Below, piece by piece: positions 18,436 to 30,054 of a DNA stretch of 64,000 bases. How positions within the stretch are numbered: position 1 is the first letter of the stretch; every line of letters begins with the position of its first letter. Below the pieces are notes generated by a model that was not told the DNA's origin, searched no databases, and worked only from the letters and a program-made list of their open reading frames with translations. The DNA comes from Pelagomonas calceolata (taxonomy: Eukaryota), in contig CAKKNE010000003.1 of NCBI GenBank assembly GCA_918797485.1, positions 3,968,001 through 4,032,000 on the forward strand. Direction: 5' to 3'. Both the position numbers and the translations under genes were made by a program.

Positions 18436-21400
18436 CTAGAAGTTACTATCGAACCAGGGGCTAGAGGGCGCCGGCGGCGGCGGGAGGTCCTCCGGCGGGC
18501 CGCCCGACGACTCCGGCGGCGGCGGTGGCGGCGCGTCTGCGGTCGCGCCGAACGCGGTGGACGCACGAATGGCGGCGCGTAGCTTGTTCGTCGTCGCGTG
18601 GCTGTGGGTGCCCGCAGCCGTCGCCGCCGGTCCGTCGTCCGCCTCCATGTCGCCGGCCGAGAGCGCCACCAACAGTTTCGCGCTGAGCCAGCCGATCGTG
18701 TCGCCAGAAATCACGCAGCACCGTTCCGCGCCGTCGCGCGTCGTCGCTCGCTCGCGCACGGTCACAATGGTGCCGCTGGGCAGGTCCGCGACGAGCGGCG
18801 AGTCCAGCTCGACGCCCGCCCGCAGGCGCGCCCCGCTCTTGCCCGAGACGACGAAGACCGGTGCAGCGGGCCCGCCCGCGGTCTGGGCCCGACCGGCCTC
18901 GATGTCGGTCTTGCCCGCGCGCGACGGGAACCAGCTCGACCGCGACGGCGCTGGTGACGGGGCAGGCGCCGGCGCCGCGCTCGGCTGCGCCTCGAGGTCC
19001 TTCGCCGGCGCTGGCTGGGCCGGCGCCGCGCTTGTCTGCGCTTCCAGGTCTGTCCTCGGCGGTGGCTGAGCCGGCGCTGCGCTCGTCGGCGCTTCCAGGT
19101 CCGTTTCCGCCGCGGGCGCGGCCTTCTTCGTAGGTCCCCTGAACCAGTTCGACCCTGTCTTGCTCGTTTTTGCCGGAGCTGGCCGCGGTGCCGCCTTGGT
19201 CGGCGCCTTCTTGGTTGCTGCAGGCCTCGGCGCCGCCTTAGTCGACGTCTCGGCCGTGGCGGTCCTCTTGGCGACGGGCGCGCGGCCCTTGGCACTCGCG
19301 GAGCTTTTCGCGGGCGCGGCAGCCGTAGGCGCCGTGGACGCCTCCTGCGCCGCCGCGCCGTCGTCGTCATCGTCGTCTTTATCGCCGCCGACGTCGAGCG
19401 AGCTCGTGCTCCGGAAGTTCGAGAGGGCGCGAGCAAACATGGATCTCATGGACCCTTGCCGCTGTTCCGCTGCCCGCGGCGAGCTCCAGGGGCGGATCTC
19501 GGACGTCGAGGAGGGCCGCTTCGGCGTCGTCGCCTTGAGCTGCTTGCAAATGTCGGAAAAGCTCGGCCGCGCGTCCGGCTCGTCGGCCCACGCACTCTTC
19601 ATGAGTGAAATCATGTCACTAGGCATGGTCTTTGGAATGTCAGGCCGCGCGCGCTTGATCAGCACCTTCGAGAGGATCTGCTGCGGCTTGAGTCCCGCCC
19701 ATGGGAGGCGGCGGTCGTAGATTTCCCAGAGGACCATAGCGTAGGAGTAGACGTCGCTCTTCTCCGTGAACACGTTCTCATCAAGAAGCTCTGGCGCCAT
19801 GAAAGCGGGCGTACCCGCGAGGCCGCCGTCGCGCATCGTGCTGGCCGTCGTAGAGGTCTTCAAATCGTCGGCCTTGCCCAACCCAAAGTCAGAGATCTTG
19901 CCGCGGCCATCCAGCGTGAGCAAGACGTTCGCGGCCTTCAGGTCGCGGTGCTCGATCTTGCACGAGTAGAGGTAGGCCATGCCCTGGGCTACGTCGGAAG
20001 CCCAAAACCGTTTGTACTCCGGAGTAATTTCTTCGTCCTCTTTGACCAGCGCCTGTCGCAGCGAACCCCCCGGCATGTACTCCATCACTAAACCGAGGTA
20101 CGTGGCGTCAGTCGTGATGATACCCAGCACTTGCACGATCCGGGGATGTCTCAATCTAACCATGATCGACAACTCCGTCGCGAAGGACTGATACATCTTC
20201 ATGCGCTCCGCAGCGGGCACGCCAACCATATTAATGCATTTAATGCAGACCGTCTCCGCCGCGTACTCGGCAAGACGCACGACGGCCTGGCCGCCGCGCG
20301 CAAATGGATCCGGGTCTACGTATTCGGGCTTAATCTCGAAGTCCTTCAGGTTCTTGCGTTTGTCGCGCCGCGCGGCTCCGTGCTGGAGCTTTTTCTCCAG
20401 CGAATCGGATATATTTTTGACGTGTTCCTTAAATGATCCGTCGCGGTTCAGCGCGGCGAGAATCTGCTTATCCCTTTCAGCGCCCGCCTCAACGGCGGCC
20501 AACAAGTTCTCGTCGCGCCGCACGCCCGCGTTGACCGCCTTCATAATAGATCGGAGGTGCTGCCGGTCGCTGTTTTTGCGCTCCAACATGGCTCGCATGC
20601 CCTGGTCTAGTTTTGCGAGACCTTGGCGTACCTCGAGCCGGAACTCCTGCAATTCGGTCGCGATCTCCGTCGGCGGCACATGAGCATCGACAGCAACAGA
20701 GGTAATCGCGACGGCGTCCTCCGAGAGCGCCGCGGCCGCCTTCTCCTCGGATTCCCCTTTCTCGACGACGCGCTTCGCGACGAGCGCCGTGATGGACTGC
20801 TCGATCTGGTAGGTTCGCTCCATCATTTTCGCATCAATTGCCAACTGGTAGCTCAGCCGGAAGACGCCCAGCTGCTCGACGATGCGCTTATCGATGCGGC
20901 CCAGCTTCTTGACGTGGCTCTGCATGGTGAACGCGCGCTTGAGCCAGCCCTTCTGCCCGAAGGCGCGCACGGCCGCGTGGAATTCCTTCAGTAAGTCGAT
21001 GAGCCGCTGCATGTTCGCTTGGGCAATATCTTTGCCGTCTGAGCACTTCGAGACGTTCTTCGACATGAGATCAACCACGTCCAGGACGTCGATGACGCGC
21101 CGCGCCGCAACGAGGACGTCGTCGGCTTTCTCCGAGAACTCCTCGACGTCACCGAGAATTCCCTTGGCGACGTCGCAAAGCGGTCTGACGAGCGGCAGGC
21201 CGCTCGCAGCGCCGAGCAGTGCCGAGGTCACGGTCATGCCTCGTTCGACCACAGCCGTCGTGTCCTTGTGCCGCTGCAGCAGAGCCTCGCGGGTCTTCGG
21301 ATCGTAGCCGGTCTCCTCGGAGCCTCGAAGCGCGGCCGCTTCGTCGCCTTGCCGCAGCGCTGCCTTTGTCCGTCTCCTGCGCCAGACGACGCCGCCGCCG

Positions 21401-24400
21401 AAGAGTGCCAGCAGGACGACAGCCCCCACGGCGCCAATGCCCGCGCCCATCGCCGCGTCTGGGCCGCCGCCGCCGCCGCCGCCGGAGCTCCCTTCGCTGG
21501 CGCTGGTGGCCGGGGCGTCGTCGGTGGCGGGGGCGTCGTCGTCCGGCTCGGGTGCCAAAGCCGTCGTAGGCGTCCCGACCGTAGTCGTTTCGACGTCTGC
21601 GAAGTCTTCATCAACACCAGCTTCGGTCGCGGCCGTTTTCACTGCTGTGCTTACGTCCTCCGTCGAGCTGTCTTCGATCAACGCGCTGACAGATGCAGCT
21701 TCCTCCGCGGTCTCAACCTCGATAGTGTAGGTCACCACGACGCCAGCGTCGTCGAGGCGACGGCGCCGCGCTTGGGAGATGTCCACGGTCACCATGACGC
21801 CAGCGTCGTCGAGGCGACGGCGCCGCGCTTGGGAGATCTCCACGGTCACAAGAGACTCGTCCACCTCGTACAATGAGGCGACCGCTGCCACAAACACGTT
21901 GGTGCTGGCCAGCGCTGTCTCGTACGTGATGCCGTCGAAGGTGAGGTCGCCGGTCACGATAAATTCCGGCGTGCCCACGGGCGACGGCGTCGGGGGCAGC
22001 GGTTCTTGCCAGGAGCCAACACACCATACTTCACCGCAGTCGTTCTCGCACTGATCTCTCCCGTTCCAACAGACCTGTTTCGTCGACACCGCCGTACAGA
22101 CGCCGCAGTCTCCGGTGGAGCAGCAGTAGCCCGGAGCTGCCGTCGGGCTGCTCGTCGGACCCGGAGTCGGCCGCGGCGTCGGAGCAAAGACGGGCGCCGC
22201 CGTCGGATTTCCGGGCGTCGCGGTTGGCGAGGGCGACGGCCTCGGCGTGGGCGCTGGCGACGGCGAATGAGAGGGCCGAGGCGTCGGCGCTGGGATAGGC
22301 GACGGCGTGGGCCTGGGCGACGGAGCCGGCAACGGCGCTGGCGTCGGCGGCCGCGTCGGCAGGGGACTCGGAATCGGTGTGGGCCGCGGCGTGGGCTGCG
22401 GCGTCGGGCGCGGCGTCGGGCTGAAGACCGGGCTCGCCGTCGGGCTTCCCGGCGTGGTGGTCGGCGACGGCGATGGGCGCGGAGTCGGGCGCGGCGTAGG
22501 CGTCTGGGTCGGCGACGGCGTGGGTCGCGGTGTTGGCGACGACGTGGGTCGCGGCGTGGGCCTTTGCGTCGGCGCTGGCGTCGGCTTCGGCGTCGGCTTC
22601 GGCGTAGGGCGCGCGCTCGGCGTGGGCGTCGGCCTGGGCGACGGGCGCGGCGTCGGGCTCGGTGTGGGCTGGCGAGTTGGTCGAGCAGTGGGCCTCGGCG
22701 TCGGGCTGAAGACCGGGCGCGCCGTCGGGTCGCCAGGAGTGATGGTCGGCGACGGCGATGGGCGCGGCGTCGGCTGTCGCGTCGGCCGCGGGCTGGGTCG
22801 AGGCGTCGGCGCGAAGGCTGGCGCAGCAGTGGGATCACCGGGCACCGGCGTCGGGTGCGGCGAGGGCCTCGGGGTCGGGCGCGGCGACGGCAACGGCGTC
22901 GGCATAGGTGTGGGCTGCGGTGTAGGCTTCGGCGAGGGTGCGGGCGTCGGTCGCCATGTCGGGCGCTTGCTGGGCTCGGGCGACGGCTTCGGCGTGGGTG
23001 CAGGCGTCGGCCGCGGCGTCGGCGTCGATGTCGGTTGGGGAGTCGGGCGCAAGCTGGGCGCGGGCGTCGGTCGCCGCGTTGGCCGCTTGCTGGGCGCGGG
23101 CGTCGGCCGCGGCGTAGGAATCGGAGTCGGCTTCGGCGTCGGAGACGCCGTGGGGCGCGGCGAAGGAGACTGCGATGGCCGTGGAGTTGGACTTGGAAAC
23201 GTGGGGCGAGGCGTCGGACCAGGCGTCGGTCTTGGCGTCGGCCTCGGGCAGTTGGCGAGGTTGCTGACTTGCACGACGCCACACGACGTCGACGAGCACG
23301 GGGTGCCGCTGAACGCCGAGTGCAGTTCCACGCCATAGTCCACGCACCAGCCGAGGTCCTGGTTAAAGGCCGAGGCATACTCGAACATCTCCTCCATATC
23401 GATAACAGCTCCAACGCTCCAGCCACCAATGTCCTGATTGAAGGAGGATGCGTCCTGGAACAACTCGTTCATCGACGTTACACTAGAGGTATCCCAAGCG
23501 CTAATGTCCTCGTTGAAAGACGAGGCTTCCTCAAACAACTCATCCATGTCCGTTACCCCGCCAGTCTCCCACGTGGAAATGTGGCCGTACGTCGTCTCGG
23601 CGGCCGTCGCGTCCGCCAACCACGCTGCAACGGCAATTTTGATTTTCCAATTGACCATGATGTTGCCCGTGCGCGAGATGTCGCAGTCAACTCCCGCGAT
23701 GCCGCACGACGTCGACGAGCACGGGGTGCCGCTGAACGCGTAGTCCAGGTCCACGTCATCGGCCACGCACCAGCCGAGGTCCTGGTTGAAGGCTGAGGCG
23801 CCTTGGAACATCTCTTCCATATCGAGAACAGCTCCAACGTTCCAGCCGCTAATGTCCTGGTCGAAGGCCGAGGCATAATAGAACATGTATTCCATGGTCG
23901 TAACGCCAGAGGTATCCCACGCGCCGATGTCCTCGTTAAATGCCGCAGCACCGTTGCATTGCCCTTCCTCATCTTCGTCTTCATTTTCACTACTCCCACA
24001 AAACAACCACGACATGTCCGTCACCCCCCCGGTCTCCCACGTCGAGATGTGCCCGTACGTCGCCTCGGCGGCAGTCGCGTCTGCGAGCCACGCTACGGCT
24101 GCCCATTTGATTTTCCAGTTGACCATGATGTTTCCTGTCTTCGCAATATCGCAATCGCCAGAGTTCTCTGCTTGCGCGACGCCGCACGACGTCGACTCGC
24201 ACTGGGTGCTGGAGAACGCGTCCTCCGTGTCCACGTCGTCGGCCACGCACCAGCCGAGGTCCTGGTCGAAGGCCGAGTTACCGGGATCACCGTCGAACAT
24301 CATTTCCATACTTGTGACACTGTCGACGCTCCACTTGCCGATTGGTTGGTTGAACGATGAAGCCATGACGAACATCATATACATGCTCGTTACGCTGGAG

Positions 24401-26037
24401 GTATCCCATGCGCTGATGTCTTCGTTGAAGGACAATGCGGCCGTGTTGCAATCACTCCATCCTGGTATCGCACAAAACAAATACGCCATGTCAGTCACCC
24501 CCGATGTGTCCCAAGTCGAAATGTGGCCGTACGTCGCCTCGGCGGCCGACGCGTCCGCAAACCACGCATCGCGAGCCGTGTATATGGTGCTGTCGGTCAT
24601 GACGTAGCCCGCCATTGCCGTGAAGGCATAGACCTTGCCGCCGGTGCCAGCTTGCATGGCCGCGACCACGATTGTGTTGCCGTCGATCGCCACGGAGCCG
24701 CCGAAGCTGTCGTATGCCGCGGCATCGGAGGCACTCAGCTTGGCCAGGCCGTTCGTGACACCGCCGTCGTACGTGGCACCGCCGTCGTCCGTGCGGAAGA
24801 CGTAGGCGGAGCCCCTGTAGCCGTTCTCGTAGTGGGCACCCACCACGATGGTGTTGCCGGCGATCGCTACGGAGCCGCCGAAGCGGTCGTTCGTCGCGGC
24901 GTCGTCGGCCGTCAGCTTGATCTCTGTGTGCGTGTCCCAGCCGTCGCTCGTGCGGAAGACGTAGGCCGATCCCGAGCTGGAGCCGCTGTCGTCGTCGCCG
25001 TAGGCTCCAATCGCAATGGTGGCGCCGGCGATCGCCACGGAGTAGCCGAAGTTGTCGCTTGCTGCGGCGTCGGAGGCCGTCAGCTTGGCCACCTGACCGT
25101 ACGTGGCGCCGCCGTCGCTTGTGTGGAAGACGTAGGCTGCGCCTCTACTGGAGCTCTTGGTGTAGGCACCGACCACGATTGTCTCACCGTCGATGGCGAC
25201 AGATACTCCGAAGTAGTCGCCCGTCGCGGCGTCGGAGGCCGTCAGCTTGATCTCTGTGTACGTGCCCCAGTCGTCGCTCGTACGGAAGACGTAAACCGCG
25301 CCTGGCTCGAACGAGGGGGTCCCAGCCTTAGCGGCCCCGATCGCGATGGTGGCGCCGGAGATCGCCACGGAGTAGCCGAATAAATCCATATAACTGGCGT
25401 CGGAGGCCCCCAGCTTAGCCACCTGGCCGTACGTGACGCCGCCGTTGGTCGTGCGGAAGACGTAGGCCTTGCCAATACCCGCGAGTAAGCAAGGTCCCGA
25501 GCCGCACGACGAGTCCTTTTCCTCCCTGGCCCCGACCACGACGGTGTCGCCGTCGACGGCTACGGAGTAGCCGAGTTTGGCGTAATCTTTGCTGCCTGTG
25601 TACATGGCCACCTGCGCATAGGTGGCGCCCTCGTCAGCCGTCCGAAAGATGTAGGCTATGCCAGCTTCGTTGTATATATTGGTATCTCTCGTCGGATTCC
25701 CGACCACGACGGTGTTGCCGTCAACGGCTACGGACCAGCCGAACCAGTCGCTCGCCTCGCCATCGGAGGCCGTCAGTTTCGCAAGCTGCGCGTAGTATTC
25801 GCTCAGCCGCCGCCTGTCAAGCGACGTCGGCGCCGGCAGCCGACGGACAACTTCGCTCGAAGCCGCGCCGGGCTGGACCAACTGAAGCGCGCTGGACGCG
25901 TTCGTCGGGCGCCGCGGTCCGCGGAGCCGCGTTCGGGAGCCCGGGGCGCTCGCACCAGCGTTCGATTCCAGCAGCCGGCAGGGGGCAGCCAACAGTGCCA
26001 GGGCAGCCCAGAAGCAGCGGCAGCGCCGCGGCGGCAT
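18436..26037 (-). CDS. Single-pass receptor kinase: signal peptide, FG-GAP repeats, BspA-like DUF285 repeats, Pro/Thr stalk, TM, MLKL-like helical domain, TKL kinase, SH3-like domain
   Basis: Intronless ORF; first ATG 26037 precedes a signal peptide; FGxSVAIDGxTIVVGA repeats, WDTSxVTxM/FNQDLGW repeats, [23 protein letters not shown]. Confidence 0.9.
21739..21849 (-). repeat. Tandem duplication of a ~57-bp coding unit ([18 protein letters not shown] twice)
   Basis: acgccagcgtcgtcgaggcgacggcgccgcgcttgggagat occurs twice consecutively. Confidence 0.85.
22140..23250 (-). repeat. Mucin/extensin-like PTPRPT/PSP coding repeats
   Basis: About 370 aa of P-T/S-P-R repeats within the receptor ORF. Confidence 0.9.
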
Positions 26038-26299: not shown

Positions 26300-27765
26300 C
26301 TAGCCGAGCGCCGCGAGCAGCCGCGCCTTGAGGACCTTCTTCAGGCCCTCCGTCGACAGGCCCCGCGCCTCGAGCGCGAGCTTAAGGTCGTAGACCTTCA
26401 TCTTCTCGACCTCGGCCGCCGTCAGCGCGTCGGCCGCCGGCCGCGCCGCGTCGGGCTCGACGTCCATCGCCGCCGCCGGCGCGGGCGCGGGCTCGGGCTC
26501 CGGCGCGGCGGGCGCCGCGCCGTCATCGCCGTCATCGCCGCCGGCGAGCGCGCCGAGGAGCCGCTCCTTCAGGACCTTCTTGAGCCCGTCCGTGGGCAGG
26601 CCCCGCGCCTCGAGCGCCGCGCGGAGCTCCGTGACCTGGGTGGTTTACGAAAGATCTCCGCGCCTTCTTTCGAAAGCGTTTTCGAGCGCGTCCAGTTTGA
26701 AGGGGCGCGGTCGAGCGACGACAAGGGGCGCCGGACGCGCGCCTTCATCTTCCCGACGTCCTCGGCCGACGGCCCGTCGACCTCCATCGCGGCCGGCGCC
26801 GGCGCGGGCGCGCCGGCCTCGTCGCCGAGCTCCGAGAAGCCGCCCGTCGAGGCCCGCGGCGCGGGCGGCGCGGGCGCGGCCGCGGGCGGCGCGGGCGGCG
26901 GCGGCGGCGGCGCGGCCGGCGCGGCCGGCGGCGGCGGCGGCGGTGCCGCCGCGCGCGGTGGTGGTGGTGGCGGCATCGACGGGGGCGGCGGCGGCGGCAC
27001 CGAGGGCACCGACGGCGGCGCGCCGGGCGGCGGCCCCGGCGGCGGCCCCGGCGGCGCCAGGCCCGGGATGACGCCGGCCCTGAGCTGCCGCTCGAGCGCG
27101 TCGACTTCCGCTGGAGTGGTGGCATTGGCCACCGCGCGCCGGATCGCCGCTTTTTGTTCGGCCGTGAGGTTCGCGAGGGCCGCGGGCGGTGCGCCGGACC
27201 GCGGCGGCGGCGGCGGCGGGTGTGCCGCGTCCGCCGTCGCCGAGACTAATGTTAAGTCCGCATTTGAAGGACCGTCTTCCGGGAACAGTTCTGAGGCCTT
27301 CTCCCGTTCTGCCGCTTTGATCTTCTTGAAGTCCAGGGTTTTCAGGGAGGGCACCGTCGCGATGAGGAACGAGCGGTAGTGCTCGAGGCGTTTTATCGGG
27401 TTGCCCACGCAAGCCAAATGCTGGAGCTTCGCGCACGACCTCAACCCCGCCAGCTGCGTGAGACTTTCGAGGCGGTTGTGGCACAACATGAGCGTTTCTA
27501 GCGAAGGTAATTGGTCGCCCAAGTTATCGTCAATTGTCGCGACGCGATTATTATGCAGTAACAGAGTAGTCAGCCGTCGGGCCGGCGCGAAGTTGCCCAC
27601 CCTCGTGATTTCGTTGTCGCTCAAATCTATAACATCGAACTGGTCCTTCAGCGTGCCGGTGTTCTCGATCGCGGCAATTTTGTAGCCCCTTAGGATCACT
27701 TCCCGCTCCCCGAGGGGGTTCATCCTTTGCGCCGCGTGGACGGCGAGGTCGGCGGTGAAGCGCAT
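26300..27765 (-). CDS. SNRPA1: U2 snRNP A' (LRR) with Pro-rich linker and two C-terminal SAP domains; exons 27765-26743, 26635-26300
   Basis: [47 protein letters not shown] intron 26636-26742 yields [28 protein letters not shown] and a second SAP-like repeat. Confidence 0.88.
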
Positions 27766-28195: not shown

Positions 28196-28735
28196 ATGGC
28201 CGCCGCAGCACTCCGCACCGCCGCACGGCACCTCGCCGCGCCGGCAGCCTTACTAGCCGCGTCGCAGTCGCGCTGCAACGAGCACGACGAGCGACTGGCC
28301 AACTTGAAAGCGGAGGTGATGCTGCTGCGCGGCGAGAACGCGCGGCTGCGGCGAGCGCTCGACGGCGACAGCCTCGACGTCGAGGCGCTGCGGCTGCGCA
28401 TCGCGGACTTCGCGCGGGAGCGCGACTGGGACCAGTTCCACACGCCGCGGAACATTTTGTTGGCGCTTGTGGGTGAGGTAGGAGAGCTCGCCGAATGCTT
28501 CCAGTGGAAATCAGAAGTTGCGCGGGGCCTGCCCGCCTTCTCCGAGCCCGAGCGGACGCACGTGGGCGAAGAGCTCGCGGACGTCCTCATCTACACCGTG
28601 CGCCTCGCCGACGTCTGCGGTATAGCGCTCGACGAGTGCGTGCCGCGGAAGATCGCCATGAACGCGCGCAAATATCCCGCCGACAAGGCGCGCGGCCGCA
28701 GCGACAAGTACACGGCGTATAGTTCTAAGTCTTAG
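28196..28735 (+). CDS. DCTPP1: dCTP pyrophosphatase 1 (MazG-like all-alpha NTP pyrophosphatase)
   Basis: FARERDWDQFHTPRNILLALVGEVGELAECFQW, EELADVLIY, KYPADKARG. Confidence 0.92.
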   Translation: MAAAALRTAARHLAAPAALLAASQSRCNEHDERLANLKAEVMLLRGENARLRRALDGDSLDVEALRLRIADFARERDWDQFHTPRNILLALVGEVGELAECFQWKSEVARGLPAFSEPERTHVGEELADVLIYTVRLADVCGIALDECVPRKIAMNARKYPADKARGRSDKYTAYSSKS

Positions 28736-29556
28736 ACCTTGAGTTTCGCGGCGGCGGCGGCGATGGCCTCGTCGTCAACGTCGTCCGCGCCCTCGTCGTC
28801 GAAGACCGACTTCTTCCCGACGCGCTGGGCCTTCTCGCCGTACGGGTCGTGGCCCTGGAAACAGTCGGGCAGCGCGACGGGGTCGCACCGCCCTTCCAGC
28901 CAGTCGTCCAGGCTCCTCCAATGTAAGGCCGTGATCTCGTACCAGGGGCTCACGTACTTGAACGAGTCCTGGACCGAGACGCAGCCCCAGTGGTCCCTCG
29001 ACGCGAGCGTCGACTCCGGGCCCGAGCCCAGCTCCGCGCCCAGAAACATCTCGACGTGGACGATGTTCCCTTTTTGTTGTTTCTTCCGGCCCTTGAAGTA
29101 CGTCCCTTCGACGAAGAGGAGGTCCCCCGGCCGCACCTCACTCAATTCAAGCTTCCGCGGCAGCGTCGCGAAGAGGTAGGCCTGGTTCCAGGGCCCGATA
29201 TCGAACCCGAAGTCCGGCCGCAATTGCCGCAGCGCCTTCCGGAAGAGAGCACAACAATCCAAATACTCCTTGAGGCCGTACAGCGCGTCGCCCGGCTTGT
29301 GGTAGCGCTCGGCGTAGGGGACGCCTACGCTCTCCAGGCATTTCGCGATGAACTTGGACCGTAATCTTGCCTTGTCGCCGGCCGGGTCCGCCGCGCGCCG
29401 TTCTGCCGCCCGGCGCCGCAATTCCTTCGTCGGCACCTGGCGCTGCTGCTGGCGTTTGCGGTTGCGGAACTGCTTGAACGCGTCTTGGAGCGAGGGGCCG
29501 TCGTTGAGCAGCGCCTCGTCCTGGCCATTGGCAGTCATCTCGGCCAGGGGGGCCAT
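28732..29556 (-). CDS. NlpC/P60-like papain-fold protein
   Basis: GVPY..LDCCAL..PGDLLF..HVEMFLG Cys/His arrangement; start at ATG 29556 assumed. Confidence 0.7.
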   Translation of the reverse strand: MAPLAEMTANGQDEALLNDGPSLQDAFKQFRNRKRQQQRQVPTKELRRRAAERRAADPAGDKARLRSKFIAKCLESVGVPYAERYHKPGDALYGLKEYLDCCALFRKALRQLRPDFGFDIGPWNQAYLFATLPRKLELSEVRPGDLLFVEGTYFKGRKKQQKGNIVHVEMFLGAELGSGPESTLASRDHWGCVSVQDSFKYVSPWYEITALHWRSLDDWLEGRCDPVALPDCFQGHDPYGEKAQRVGKKSVFDDEGADDVDDEAIAAAAAKLKV

Positions 29557-30054
29557 GGGCGGTGGTCTCAGCACCTAATAAGGTAGGTCTTACAAGTCCC
29601 GCCCCTGTCTTGACAGCACCCTCTGGGCAGCCTACCAGCGTCGTGTCGTGTCGCGGCCGTGGCGTCGGGCAGCGCACGGACTCTCGATTCGACGGTGTCG
29701 CTGCCGTGCGATGGGCGCAGTACGACACAGGCACCGACTGCCGCCCGCGCCCGGCGCCGGGCAAATACCCAACGACTCCGCTAGCCGAGCCGCCGCGATC
29801 GCAGCGATCCATGGGCCCTCCCGCTGGCCGCAGCGACTCGGTCGACGCCTCCAAGCGCAACCCGCACCAAGCTAGCGGCGGTAAGGCACTAGCAAGCTGG
29901 GCAAGCGGGACAAAAGCGCGGCCAACAATGGGTCGCTGACCGATTTCGACTGATCATATAGCGCAAAATATTGGCACGAACGCGCCGGACAAGCTGCTCC
30001 AGTCGCCGTTGCAGGCACGGCTGCAAAAGCCAGCCCTAGGCCACCGGCAGTCCC

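What the first reader, a model, noticed from the sequence alone, without database searches (positions are those of the whole stretch)
26300..27765. Spliceosomal U2A' fused to a poly-Pro linker and two SAP DNA-binding domains
Seen only after splicing a GC-AG intron (26636-26742): [28 protein letters not shown] and [28 protein letters not shown] follow the LRR core. Established: U2A'/Lea1 is normally an LRR protein with a short tail, and SAP motifs bind DNA/RNA. Inference: a U2 snRNP subunit tethered to chromatin or nascent RNA, notable in a genome with atypical transposon-derived introns.
Basis: partly seen in the sequence, partly recalled or inferred. Interest (0 to 1): 0.7.

Follow-up and report, generated by a model that had tools for sequence, protein, structure and literature searches.

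The report
Stramenopile-wide SAP tail on U2A'
This core splicing protein (U2A') carries a flexible tail ending in a predicted nucleic-acid-binding SAP domain, as it does in water moulds, brown algae and many of their relatives, so the tail is likely an old lineage trait that may tether the splicing particle to RNA or DNA, not an adaptation to this alga's transposon-born introns.

Summary
The gene is real. It is a minus-strand U2A' (LRR core plus helical hairpin), followed by a proline-rich linker and two Pfam SAP domains; the SAP exon is in frame only if the intron is spliced. The public Pelagomonas calceolata record already has LRR + SAP but uses a GT donor 6 nt downstream. U2A'-SAP occurs in oomycetes, brown algae, Nannochloropsis, Chattonella, Aureococcus and deeper lineages, and 18 of the 20 fusion-bearing species I could match to a published introner survey have no introners. 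The intron shows no introner marks and seems to sit at a position shared with older relatives. On a 50-row tree, 22 of 23 SAP-bearing rows group with the named stramenopiles (95/96), consistent with one early gain and later losses; Gefionella falls outside. Only the doubling of SAP looks local. Likely role: an accessory, non-specific nucleic-acid tether on U2 snRNP, like the SAP + poly-Pro end of human SF3b145 (untested). I found no paper discussing it. Modest interest.

The parts
26743..27765 (-). Exon 1 of U2A' (SNRPA1/Lea1 orthologue): LRR core, helical hairpin, Pro-rich linker and the first 9 residues of SAP1
   Evidence: RNA depth about 45-85 over the LRR part, on the expected strand
27280..27762 (-). 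LRR core (aa 2-162), the part that binds U2B'' and U2 snRNA in solved U2A' structures
   Evidence: Pfam LRR_9 E=6e-49; Foldseek 1a9n E=2e-21, rmsd 0.8-1.2
27061..27180 (-). Conserved C-terminal helical hairpin of U2A' (aa about 196-235), also present in human U2A'
   Evidence: alignment to human U2A' runs to aa 238; two predicted helices, pLDDT about 90
26770..27060 (-). Proline/alanine-rich linker (aa about 236-332), predicted without secondary structure
26546..26769 (-). SAP domain 1, split by the intron between the conserved K and V near its start
   Evidence: Pfam SAP; alignment of 37 SAP domains
26636..26742 (-). The public model uses the in-frame GT at 26736 (101-nt intron)
   Evidence: no junction read listed
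26300..26635 (-). Exon 2: rest of SAP1, acidic/Pro spacer, SAP2, stop
   Evidence: same exon with both SAPs and an open frame in L003
26303..26425 (-). SAP domain 2, an intronless tandem copy of SAP1 (96 of 129 nt identical)
   Evidence: RNA depth 6-10 on the expected strand in 3 of 4 runs, 0 in the fourth

Best explanation
This gene encodes the alga's U2A' with a proline-rich tail that ends in two SAP domains once the intron is removed; the tail is likely inherited from an early stramenopile and likely acts as an accessory, non-sequence-specific tether that would hold U2 snRNP near nascent RNA or DNA. Shown here: U2A' identity; two SAP domains in the spliced frame; transcription of the SAP2 end on the right strand; a single C-terminal SAP on U2A' across oomycetes, brown algae, Nannochloropsis, Chattonella, Aureococcus and unnamed deeper lineages. 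Inferred: one early gain with later losses; splicing at the GC donor; a recent local duplication of SAP in Pelagomonas; and the mechanism. In that mechanism the LRR core docks on U2B''/U2 snRNA as in all eukaryotes, while a linker of roughly 100 or more disordered residues lets the small basic helix-extension-helix reach nucleic acid outside the particle and raise U2 snRNP's residence there. Two copies would add avidity. The tail is probably not needed for catalysis, because several stramenopile-clade U2A' proteins lack it.
For: Identity. Gene and neighbours match published rows Pca_3p22100-22120, where 22110 is listed as U2A' with PF14580 + PF02037. Spread: 73 of 438 U2A'-like proteins fetched carry a SAP by my local HMM (the searches were enriched for fusions on purpose, so this is not a frequency). 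Pfam confirmed SAP above cut-off in every one of the 15 U2A' proteins with a positive local-HMM score that I scanned, and in P0281, which my threshold missed. The Chattonella record is a transcript model marked complete, so the fusion exists in at least one mRNA-derived protein. Selection: in 72 of 73 the SAP is single and in all 73 it lies within 12 residues of the C-terminus, while the stretch between LRR and SAP varies from 82 to 357 aa with 1-34% proline. Six SAP positions including G, K and R are invariant in 37 of 37 aligned domains, median net charge +3 (partly circular, since an HMM picked them). Tree: 22 of 23 SAP-bearing rows lie with all named stramenopiles on one side of a 95/96 branch. 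Analogy: human SF3b145 is SAP + poly-P + DUF382 + PSP, whereas the P. calceolata SF3B2 row lists only DUF382 and PSP. Nearest solved SAPs are those of the RNA-processing proteins 1zrj and 2do1.
Against: No binding data exist for this SAP; RNA versus DNA cannot be told from sequence. No junction read was listed, and a few reads lie inside the intron (depth 2 and 0.73 in two of four runs). RNA depth over the SAP end is 5-10 times below the LRR part and zero over the linker; this fits GC and repeat drop-out, which the tool flagged, but a shorter isoform is not excluded. 11 of the 33 rows on the stramenopile side of the tree lack SAP; some are visibly partial or mis-modelled, others look complete. 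SAP is promiscuous in this species: 59 hits in the held part of the published table, including an Era GTPase, a DEAD-box helicase and an aldo-keto reductase among the 13 I saw. Named animal, plant and green-algal U2A' rows have no SAP.
Confidence: 0.6

Rival explanations
1. The SAP is a promiscuous module that landed on U2A' and gives only generic nuclear or chromatin retention, with no specific role in splicing; the second copy in Pelagomonas is drift in a genome rich in SAP fusions.
For: 59 SAP hits in the held part of the P. calceolata table, on unrelated enzymes among the 13 seen. Reads from another gene share a 31-nt stretch with SAP1 (loose ends). The domain is absent from several stramenopile-clade U2A' proteins. 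Only 1 of 73 SAP-bearing U2A' proteins has two copies. This rival probably does explain the duplication.
Against: The first SAP is kept at the C-terminus from oomycetes to brown algae while the linker is rewritten. A SAP tail also appears on U2A' outside the clade (Gefionella, Pfam E=8e-12; P0282, weak, below cut-off), which suggests recurrence.
Confidence: 0.2
2. The SAP tail is a protein-binding module, for example docking U2 snRNP to export or chromatin factors, with the poly-Pro linker recruiting WW/GYF/SH3-type partners.
For: Korneta et al. list WW, GYF and SH3 among the spliceosome's disorder-binding domains, and poly-P regions on several U2 proteins. The linker is Pro-rich in many orthologues.
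Against: Proline content falls to 1-9% in brown algae and several unnamed lineages that keep the SAP. The invariant basic and glycine positions are those of nucleic-acid-binding SAPs (role of the residues recalled).
Confidence: 0.1
3. In this alga the intron is mostly retained or the transcript ends early, so the main product is a U2A' without SAP (398 aa if unspliced).
For: Weak GC donor. No junction row; reads inside the intron in 2 of 4 runs; much lower depth on the SAP side.
Against: The intron-only bin has depth 0 in two runs whose SAP2 bins have 6-10. In L003 the intron has a 16-nt insertion while exon 2 changes only by in-frame deletions and keeps both SAPs. The public gene model splices it.
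Confidence: 0.07
4. The fusion is an adaptation for splicing transposon-derived (introner) introns.
For: P. calceolata has 956 putative introners with GT and GC donors. Both named pelagophytes with the fusion are introner-positive. The doubling of SAP was seen only in P. calceolata-like sequences.
Against: 18 of 20 matched fusion-bearing species are introner-negative, and all 26 oomycete rows of the table are scored 0. The fusion looks older than pelagophytes. Introner-positive Aureococcus has one SAP, like oomycetes. The gene's own intron lacks introner marks.
Confidence: 0.03

Closest known systems
U2A' (human SNRPA1, yeast Lea1; PDB 1a9n, 5xjc, 3jb9)
   Same: LRR core and C-terminal helical hairpin; E=4e-44 by sequence; rmsd 0.8-1.2 over about 161 columns.
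   Different: Human U2A' ends at 255 aa; this protein adds about 215 aa of linker and two SAP domains.
Stramenopile U2A'-SAP proteins already in public databases, many labelled 'SAP domain-containing protein' (oomycetes, Ectocarpus, Nannochloropsis, Chattonella, Aureococcus)
   Same: Same order LRR - hairpin - low-complexity linker - C-terminal SAP. The P. calceolata record P0083 is this protein apart from the donor choice.
   Different: They have one SAP; this has two. The public P. calceolata model carries a 2-residue insert in SAP1 from the GT donor that none of the other 36 aligned domains has.
Human SF3b145 (SF3B2) N-terminus, and the SAP insertion in SF3a60 (SF3A3)
   Same: A SAP next to poly-Pro disorder on a U2 snRNP subunit; proposed but not shown to bind nucleic acid.
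   Different: Different subunit and opposite end of the chain; no homology of the host proteins. P. calceolata SF3B2 is annotated without SAP.
SAP domains of hnRNP UL1 (1zrj), SARNP/Hcc-1 (2do1) and SDE2
   Same: Nearest solved SAPs by sequence, E=0.001 and 0.04; SDE2 has a SAP, binds RNA and affects splicing. The name hnRNP UL1 for 1zrj is recalled.
   Different: Those are hnRNP, export or step-specific factors, not core snRNP subunits.
Pelagophyte introner elements
   Same: GC donors occur in them.
   Different: They are repeat families with terminal inverted repeats and a length peak near 210 nt; this intron is 107 nt with none of these marks found.

Membership tests
U2A' (SNRPA1/Lea1) | N-terminal LRR_9 domain whose best matches are U2A' chains | tested here: met
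U2A' (SNRPA1/Lea1) | Conserved C-terminal helical hairpin after the LRR | tested here: met
U2A' (SNRPA1/Lea1) | Sole orthologue in the genome | tested here: inconclusive
U2A' (SNRPA1/Lea1) | Binds U2B'' and U2 snRNA in U2 snRNP | not tested
   Inferred from orthology; no complex prediction was run
SAP domain (PF02037) | Profile match above the curated cut-off, two stretches | tested here: met
   63 bits against 23.9
SAP domain (PF02037) | Helix-extension-helix fold with conserved hydrophobic, G, K and R positions | tested here: met
   predicted helices 344-353/362-375 and 424-433/442-453, pLDDT about 80-93; invariant positions
SAP domain (PF02037) | Binds DNA or RNA | not testable with these tools
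   needs a binding assay
Introner element (the intron) | Terminal inverted repeats | tested here: not met
   longest exact match between the two ends was 5 nt
Introner element (the intron) | Target-site duplication | tested here: not met
   longest direct match around the ends was 4 nt and not at the boundaries
Introner element (the intron) | Many similar copies in the genome | tested here: inconclusive
   no copy in the 64-kb window, best other match 14 nt; the rest of the genome was not available
Introner element (the intron) | Recent, lineage-specific position | tested here: not met
   ORFs or models of P0006/P0099, P0012 and Ectocarpus P0358 leave the SAP consensus at the same K/T-V point; inferred from protein, DNA not seen
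GC-AG U2-type intron | Junction reads place the donor at 26742 | tested here: inconclusive
   no joint listed; comparative evidence favours it; the public model disagrees

The most novel reading that the evidence does not exclude
Stramenopiles carry on U2A' the SAP-plus-poly-proline tether that animals carry on SF3b145: a convergent solution in which U2 snRNP needs a flexible nucleic-acid anchor for co-transcriptional recruitment, and the subunit that bears it is interchangeable. The tail on Gefionella U2A' would be a further independent origin, and the single-gene U2A' tail would be the simplest place to test what spliceosomal SAP domains do.
Probability: 0.2. Interest if true: 0.55.

Novelty: new variant of a known kind. 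Interest (0 to 1): 0.3.

Why it matters
It removes the introner story but leaves a lineage-wide change to a core spliceosome subunit that databases record only as domain labels. If the tail is a tether, stramenopiles offer a clean genetic test of what SAP domains do on U2 snRNP, which is unsettled even for human SF3b145 in the passages I read. The fusion may also serve as a rare-genomic-change marker for stramenopiles. Practically, the public gene model probably has the wrong donor, and models of some relatives (P0358, possibly P0011) probably miss the SAP exon.

Tried and rejected
The loose ends at 26607-26637 looked at first like junction reads but continue into unrelated sequence on both sides; they are another SAP-bearing gene. 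I tried to read the donor from the 1.42 depth of bin 26720-26781 in X21; it fits neither donor cleanly and was dropped. No whole genome was held, so intron copy number and SAP paralogues were checked only in the window (no other SAP, no intron copy). The metagenome scan gave 3 loci: L003 informative, L001 cut 5 nt into the intron, L002 an unrelated chance match. For P0003, P0010, P0086 and P0096 the frameshifted ORFs do not fix the second base of the donor, so they are used only for the downstream GT. The FastTree was a first look; the tree cited is (LG+G4, no mixture model, 50 hand-picked rows, first 250 residues, midpoint root); I ran no AU test. Strict compensation between SF3B2 and U2A' was considered and not adopted: P. 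calceolata SF3A3 keeps PF13297, which I recall as the SAP-like SDE2/SF3A3 domain, and named plant U2A' rows lack SAP although I recall plant SF3B2 lacking it too. No complex prediction was run, as no protein partner is proposed. Earlier scan findings: none returned. Literature: 'spliceosom + stramenopile + SAP domain' gave 0 papers; 'SAP domain + promiscuous + domain fusion' 0; 'U2A + SAP domain + U2 snRNP' 17, none about stramenopiles by title and abstract start.

Full report
What is there. The minus strand holds an ORF from ATG 27765. Read without splicing it ends after 398 aa. Removing 26742-26636 (107 nt, GC...AG, phase 0) gives 452 aa ending at 26300. Exon 1 matches Pfam LRR_9 (E=6e-49) and exon 2 matches SAP in two stretches (E=1.5e-17). 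The best PDB hits by sequence and by fold are U2A' chains. The AlphaFold model of the public record (mean pLDDT 79, pTM 0.49) shows a confident LRR, a helical hairpin at 202-229, an unstructured linker and two small helical SAP units.

It is already annotated. A cluster look-up returned a Pelagomonas calceolata record, P0083, named 'SAP domain-containing protein'. It equals the window's product except for two extra residues from a GT donor at 26736. The genome paper's gene table lists Pca_3p22110 as U2A' with PF14580 and PF02037, between an FG-GAP/DUF285 kinase and a dCTP diphosphatase, the same neighbours as in the window.

Is the intron spliced, and where? Four raw RNA runs, at most one sample and about 6-12% of each read, cover the LRR part at depth about 45-85 and the SAP2 end at 6-10 in three runs and 0 in the fourth, on the expected strand. 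The linker has no depth; the tool flagged skipped repeats there. The intron-only bin has depth 0, 0, 2 and 0.73. No joint was listed at the intron, the threshold being three reads. So splicing is not shown directly. Comparative evidence favours the GC donor. In locus L003 the GC is kept, the downstream GT is gone, the intron is 123 nt with an in-frame stop, and exon 2 keeps both SAPs. By back-reading of frameshifted ORFs, P0096 and P0010 also lack a G at that place, while P0003, P0086 and P0093 are compatible with the window. In the more distant P0006/P0099 the ORF has Val, hence GT, exactly at the position of the GC and then leaves the SAP consensus. The public model's two extra residues are an insert found in 1 of 37 aligned SAP domains. 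Against this, the public model was built partly from transcript alignments, so its GT may have read support, and both donors may be used in this strain. I put the GC donor at about 75%.

Is the intron an introner? The paper reports 956 putative introners with GT and GC donors and terminal inverted repeats and a length peak near 210 nt. This intron is 107 nt. Its longest end-to-end inverted match is 5 nt, its longest direct match 4 nt, and it has no copy in the window. Sequences from P0006/P0099, P0012 and the Ectocarpus siliculosus model P0358 all leave the SAP consensus at the same point, which suggests an old shared intron position. That is inferred from protein only. It is probably not an introner.

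How widespread is the fusion? Three homologue searches and one profile-free scan of cluster representatives gave 438 U2A'-like proteins, 73 with a SAP by a local HMM, and only P0083 with two. The queries contained SAP, so this is enriched and not a frequency; only the best 120-150 rows of those searches were listed. Named carriers include Phytophthora, Pythium, Globisporangium, Peronospora, Plasmopara, Bremia, Hyaloperonospora, Peronosclerospora, Aphanomyces, Saprolegnia, Thraustotheca, Ectocarpus sp., Pylaiella, Cladosiphon, Nannochloropsis oceanica, Chattonella subsalsa and Aureococcus, plus a record labelled GSMAST32, which I read as MAST-3, and the malawimonad Gefionella okellyi ('malawimonad' is recalled). 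Every named oomycete row listed has PF02037; no named animal, plant or green-algal row or 33 does. Non-carriers among named stramenopiles: Chrysophaeum taylorii P0011, Vaucheria P0258, E. siliculosus P0358 and the partial Aureococcus model P0008. No named diatom was retrieved.

Introner test. In Gozashti et al. Supplementary Table 4 I could match 20 fusion-bearing species by name: 2 are introner-positive (P. calceolata, Aureococcus) and 18 negative (all oomycetes; one matched with a spelling variant). All 26 oomycete rows are scored 0, as are the two Ectocarpus and three Nannochloropsis rows. Carriers absent from the part of the table I read, such as Chattonella, Cladosiphon, Pylaiella and N. 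oceanica, were not counted.

History. On a 50-row tree of the first 250 residues (239 columns, LG+G4), 22 of 23 SAP-bearing rows and all named stramenopiles fall on one side of a 95/96 branch; 11 of the 33 rows there lack SAP, and Gefionella lies outside with weak placement. The label needs at least 7 changes. One early gain, several losses or missed exons, and a separate or older origin in Gefionella is the simplest reading. Rows were hand-picked, the root is the midpoint, and no AU test was run. SAP1 and SAP2 are 96 of 129 nt identical, and two copies were seen only in P. calceolata-like sequences (P0083, P0269, L003), so the duplication looks local.

Mechanism. The core should act as ordinary U2A' (orthology; established knowledge). 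The SAP stays at the C-terminus while the linker varies in length and composition, and its core G, K, R and L positions are invariant, which points to selection on the domain rather than on the linker. SAP domains are described as nucleic-acid-binding modules. Human U2 snRNP already has a SAP next to poly-Pro disorder on SF3b145 and a SAP insertion in SF3a60; the P. calceolata SF3B2 row has no SAP, though its SF3A3 keeps PF13297. I therefore favour an accessory, non-specific tether (0.6). A generic passenger role is the main rival (0.2): the published table has 59 SAP hits in its held part, on diverse proteins among the 13 I saw. Nothing here tests binding.

Literature seen. PMC9481584: passages of the main text, passages of supplement 2, rows of supplement 4 (cut when stored); supplement 5 could not be read. 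PMC9860276: passages and parts of its supplement. PMC3424538, PMC8450105, PMC7898707: passages only. Other papers: search listings only. Huff et al. 2016 was not read. Searches found no paper discussing a U2A'-SAP fusion; the library lacks most subscription journals, so this is weak evidence of absence.

Verdict. Observation confirmed; interpretation partly supported; introner link rejected. A new variant of a known kind at the level of description, already present as database labels. Interest 0.3.

Noticed in passing
window 18436-26037 (-): Single 2,533-aa ORF with 7 FG-GAP repeats, 3 DUF285 blocks, a long Pro/Thr stalk, an apparent membrane segment and a TKL-type kinase: a receptor-like kinase built from bacterial-type surface repeats. 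Already listed as Pca_3p22100.
   Followed up: partly
window 26607-26637: RNA reads from another gene share this 31-nt stretch of SAP1 and run through the intron position uninterrupted, so near-identical SAP modules occur elsewhere in the genome.
   Followed up: no
published P. calceolata gene table: 59 SAP hits in the held part, including fusions to an Era GTPase, an MSS116-like helicase, an endonuclease VIII, a THUMP methylase and an aldo-keto reductase: a possible SAP expansion that reaches proteins with organellar or metabolic annotation.
   Followed up: no
proteins P0227, P0282, P0076: U2A' proteins outside the stramenopile side of the tree with a SAP (Gefionella), a weak SAP (P0282, below cut-off) or a SAP-like helical end with no Pfam hit (P0076): possible repeated gains.
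   Followed up: partly
proteins P0273, P0325, P0284, P0267: Unnamed stramenopile-side U2A' proteins without SAP whose long tails end in Lys/Arg-rich repeats, perhaps another kind of basic tether or localisation signal.
   Followed up: no
window 28196-28735 (+) and 28732-29574 (-): A MazG-like dCTP diphosphatase and a convergent ORF with a weak NlpC/P60 match (E=0.05); their stop codons overlap by 4 nt.
   Followed up: no
L003, intron: The homologous intron carries a 16-nt tandem duplication, making it 123 nt.
   Followed up: yes
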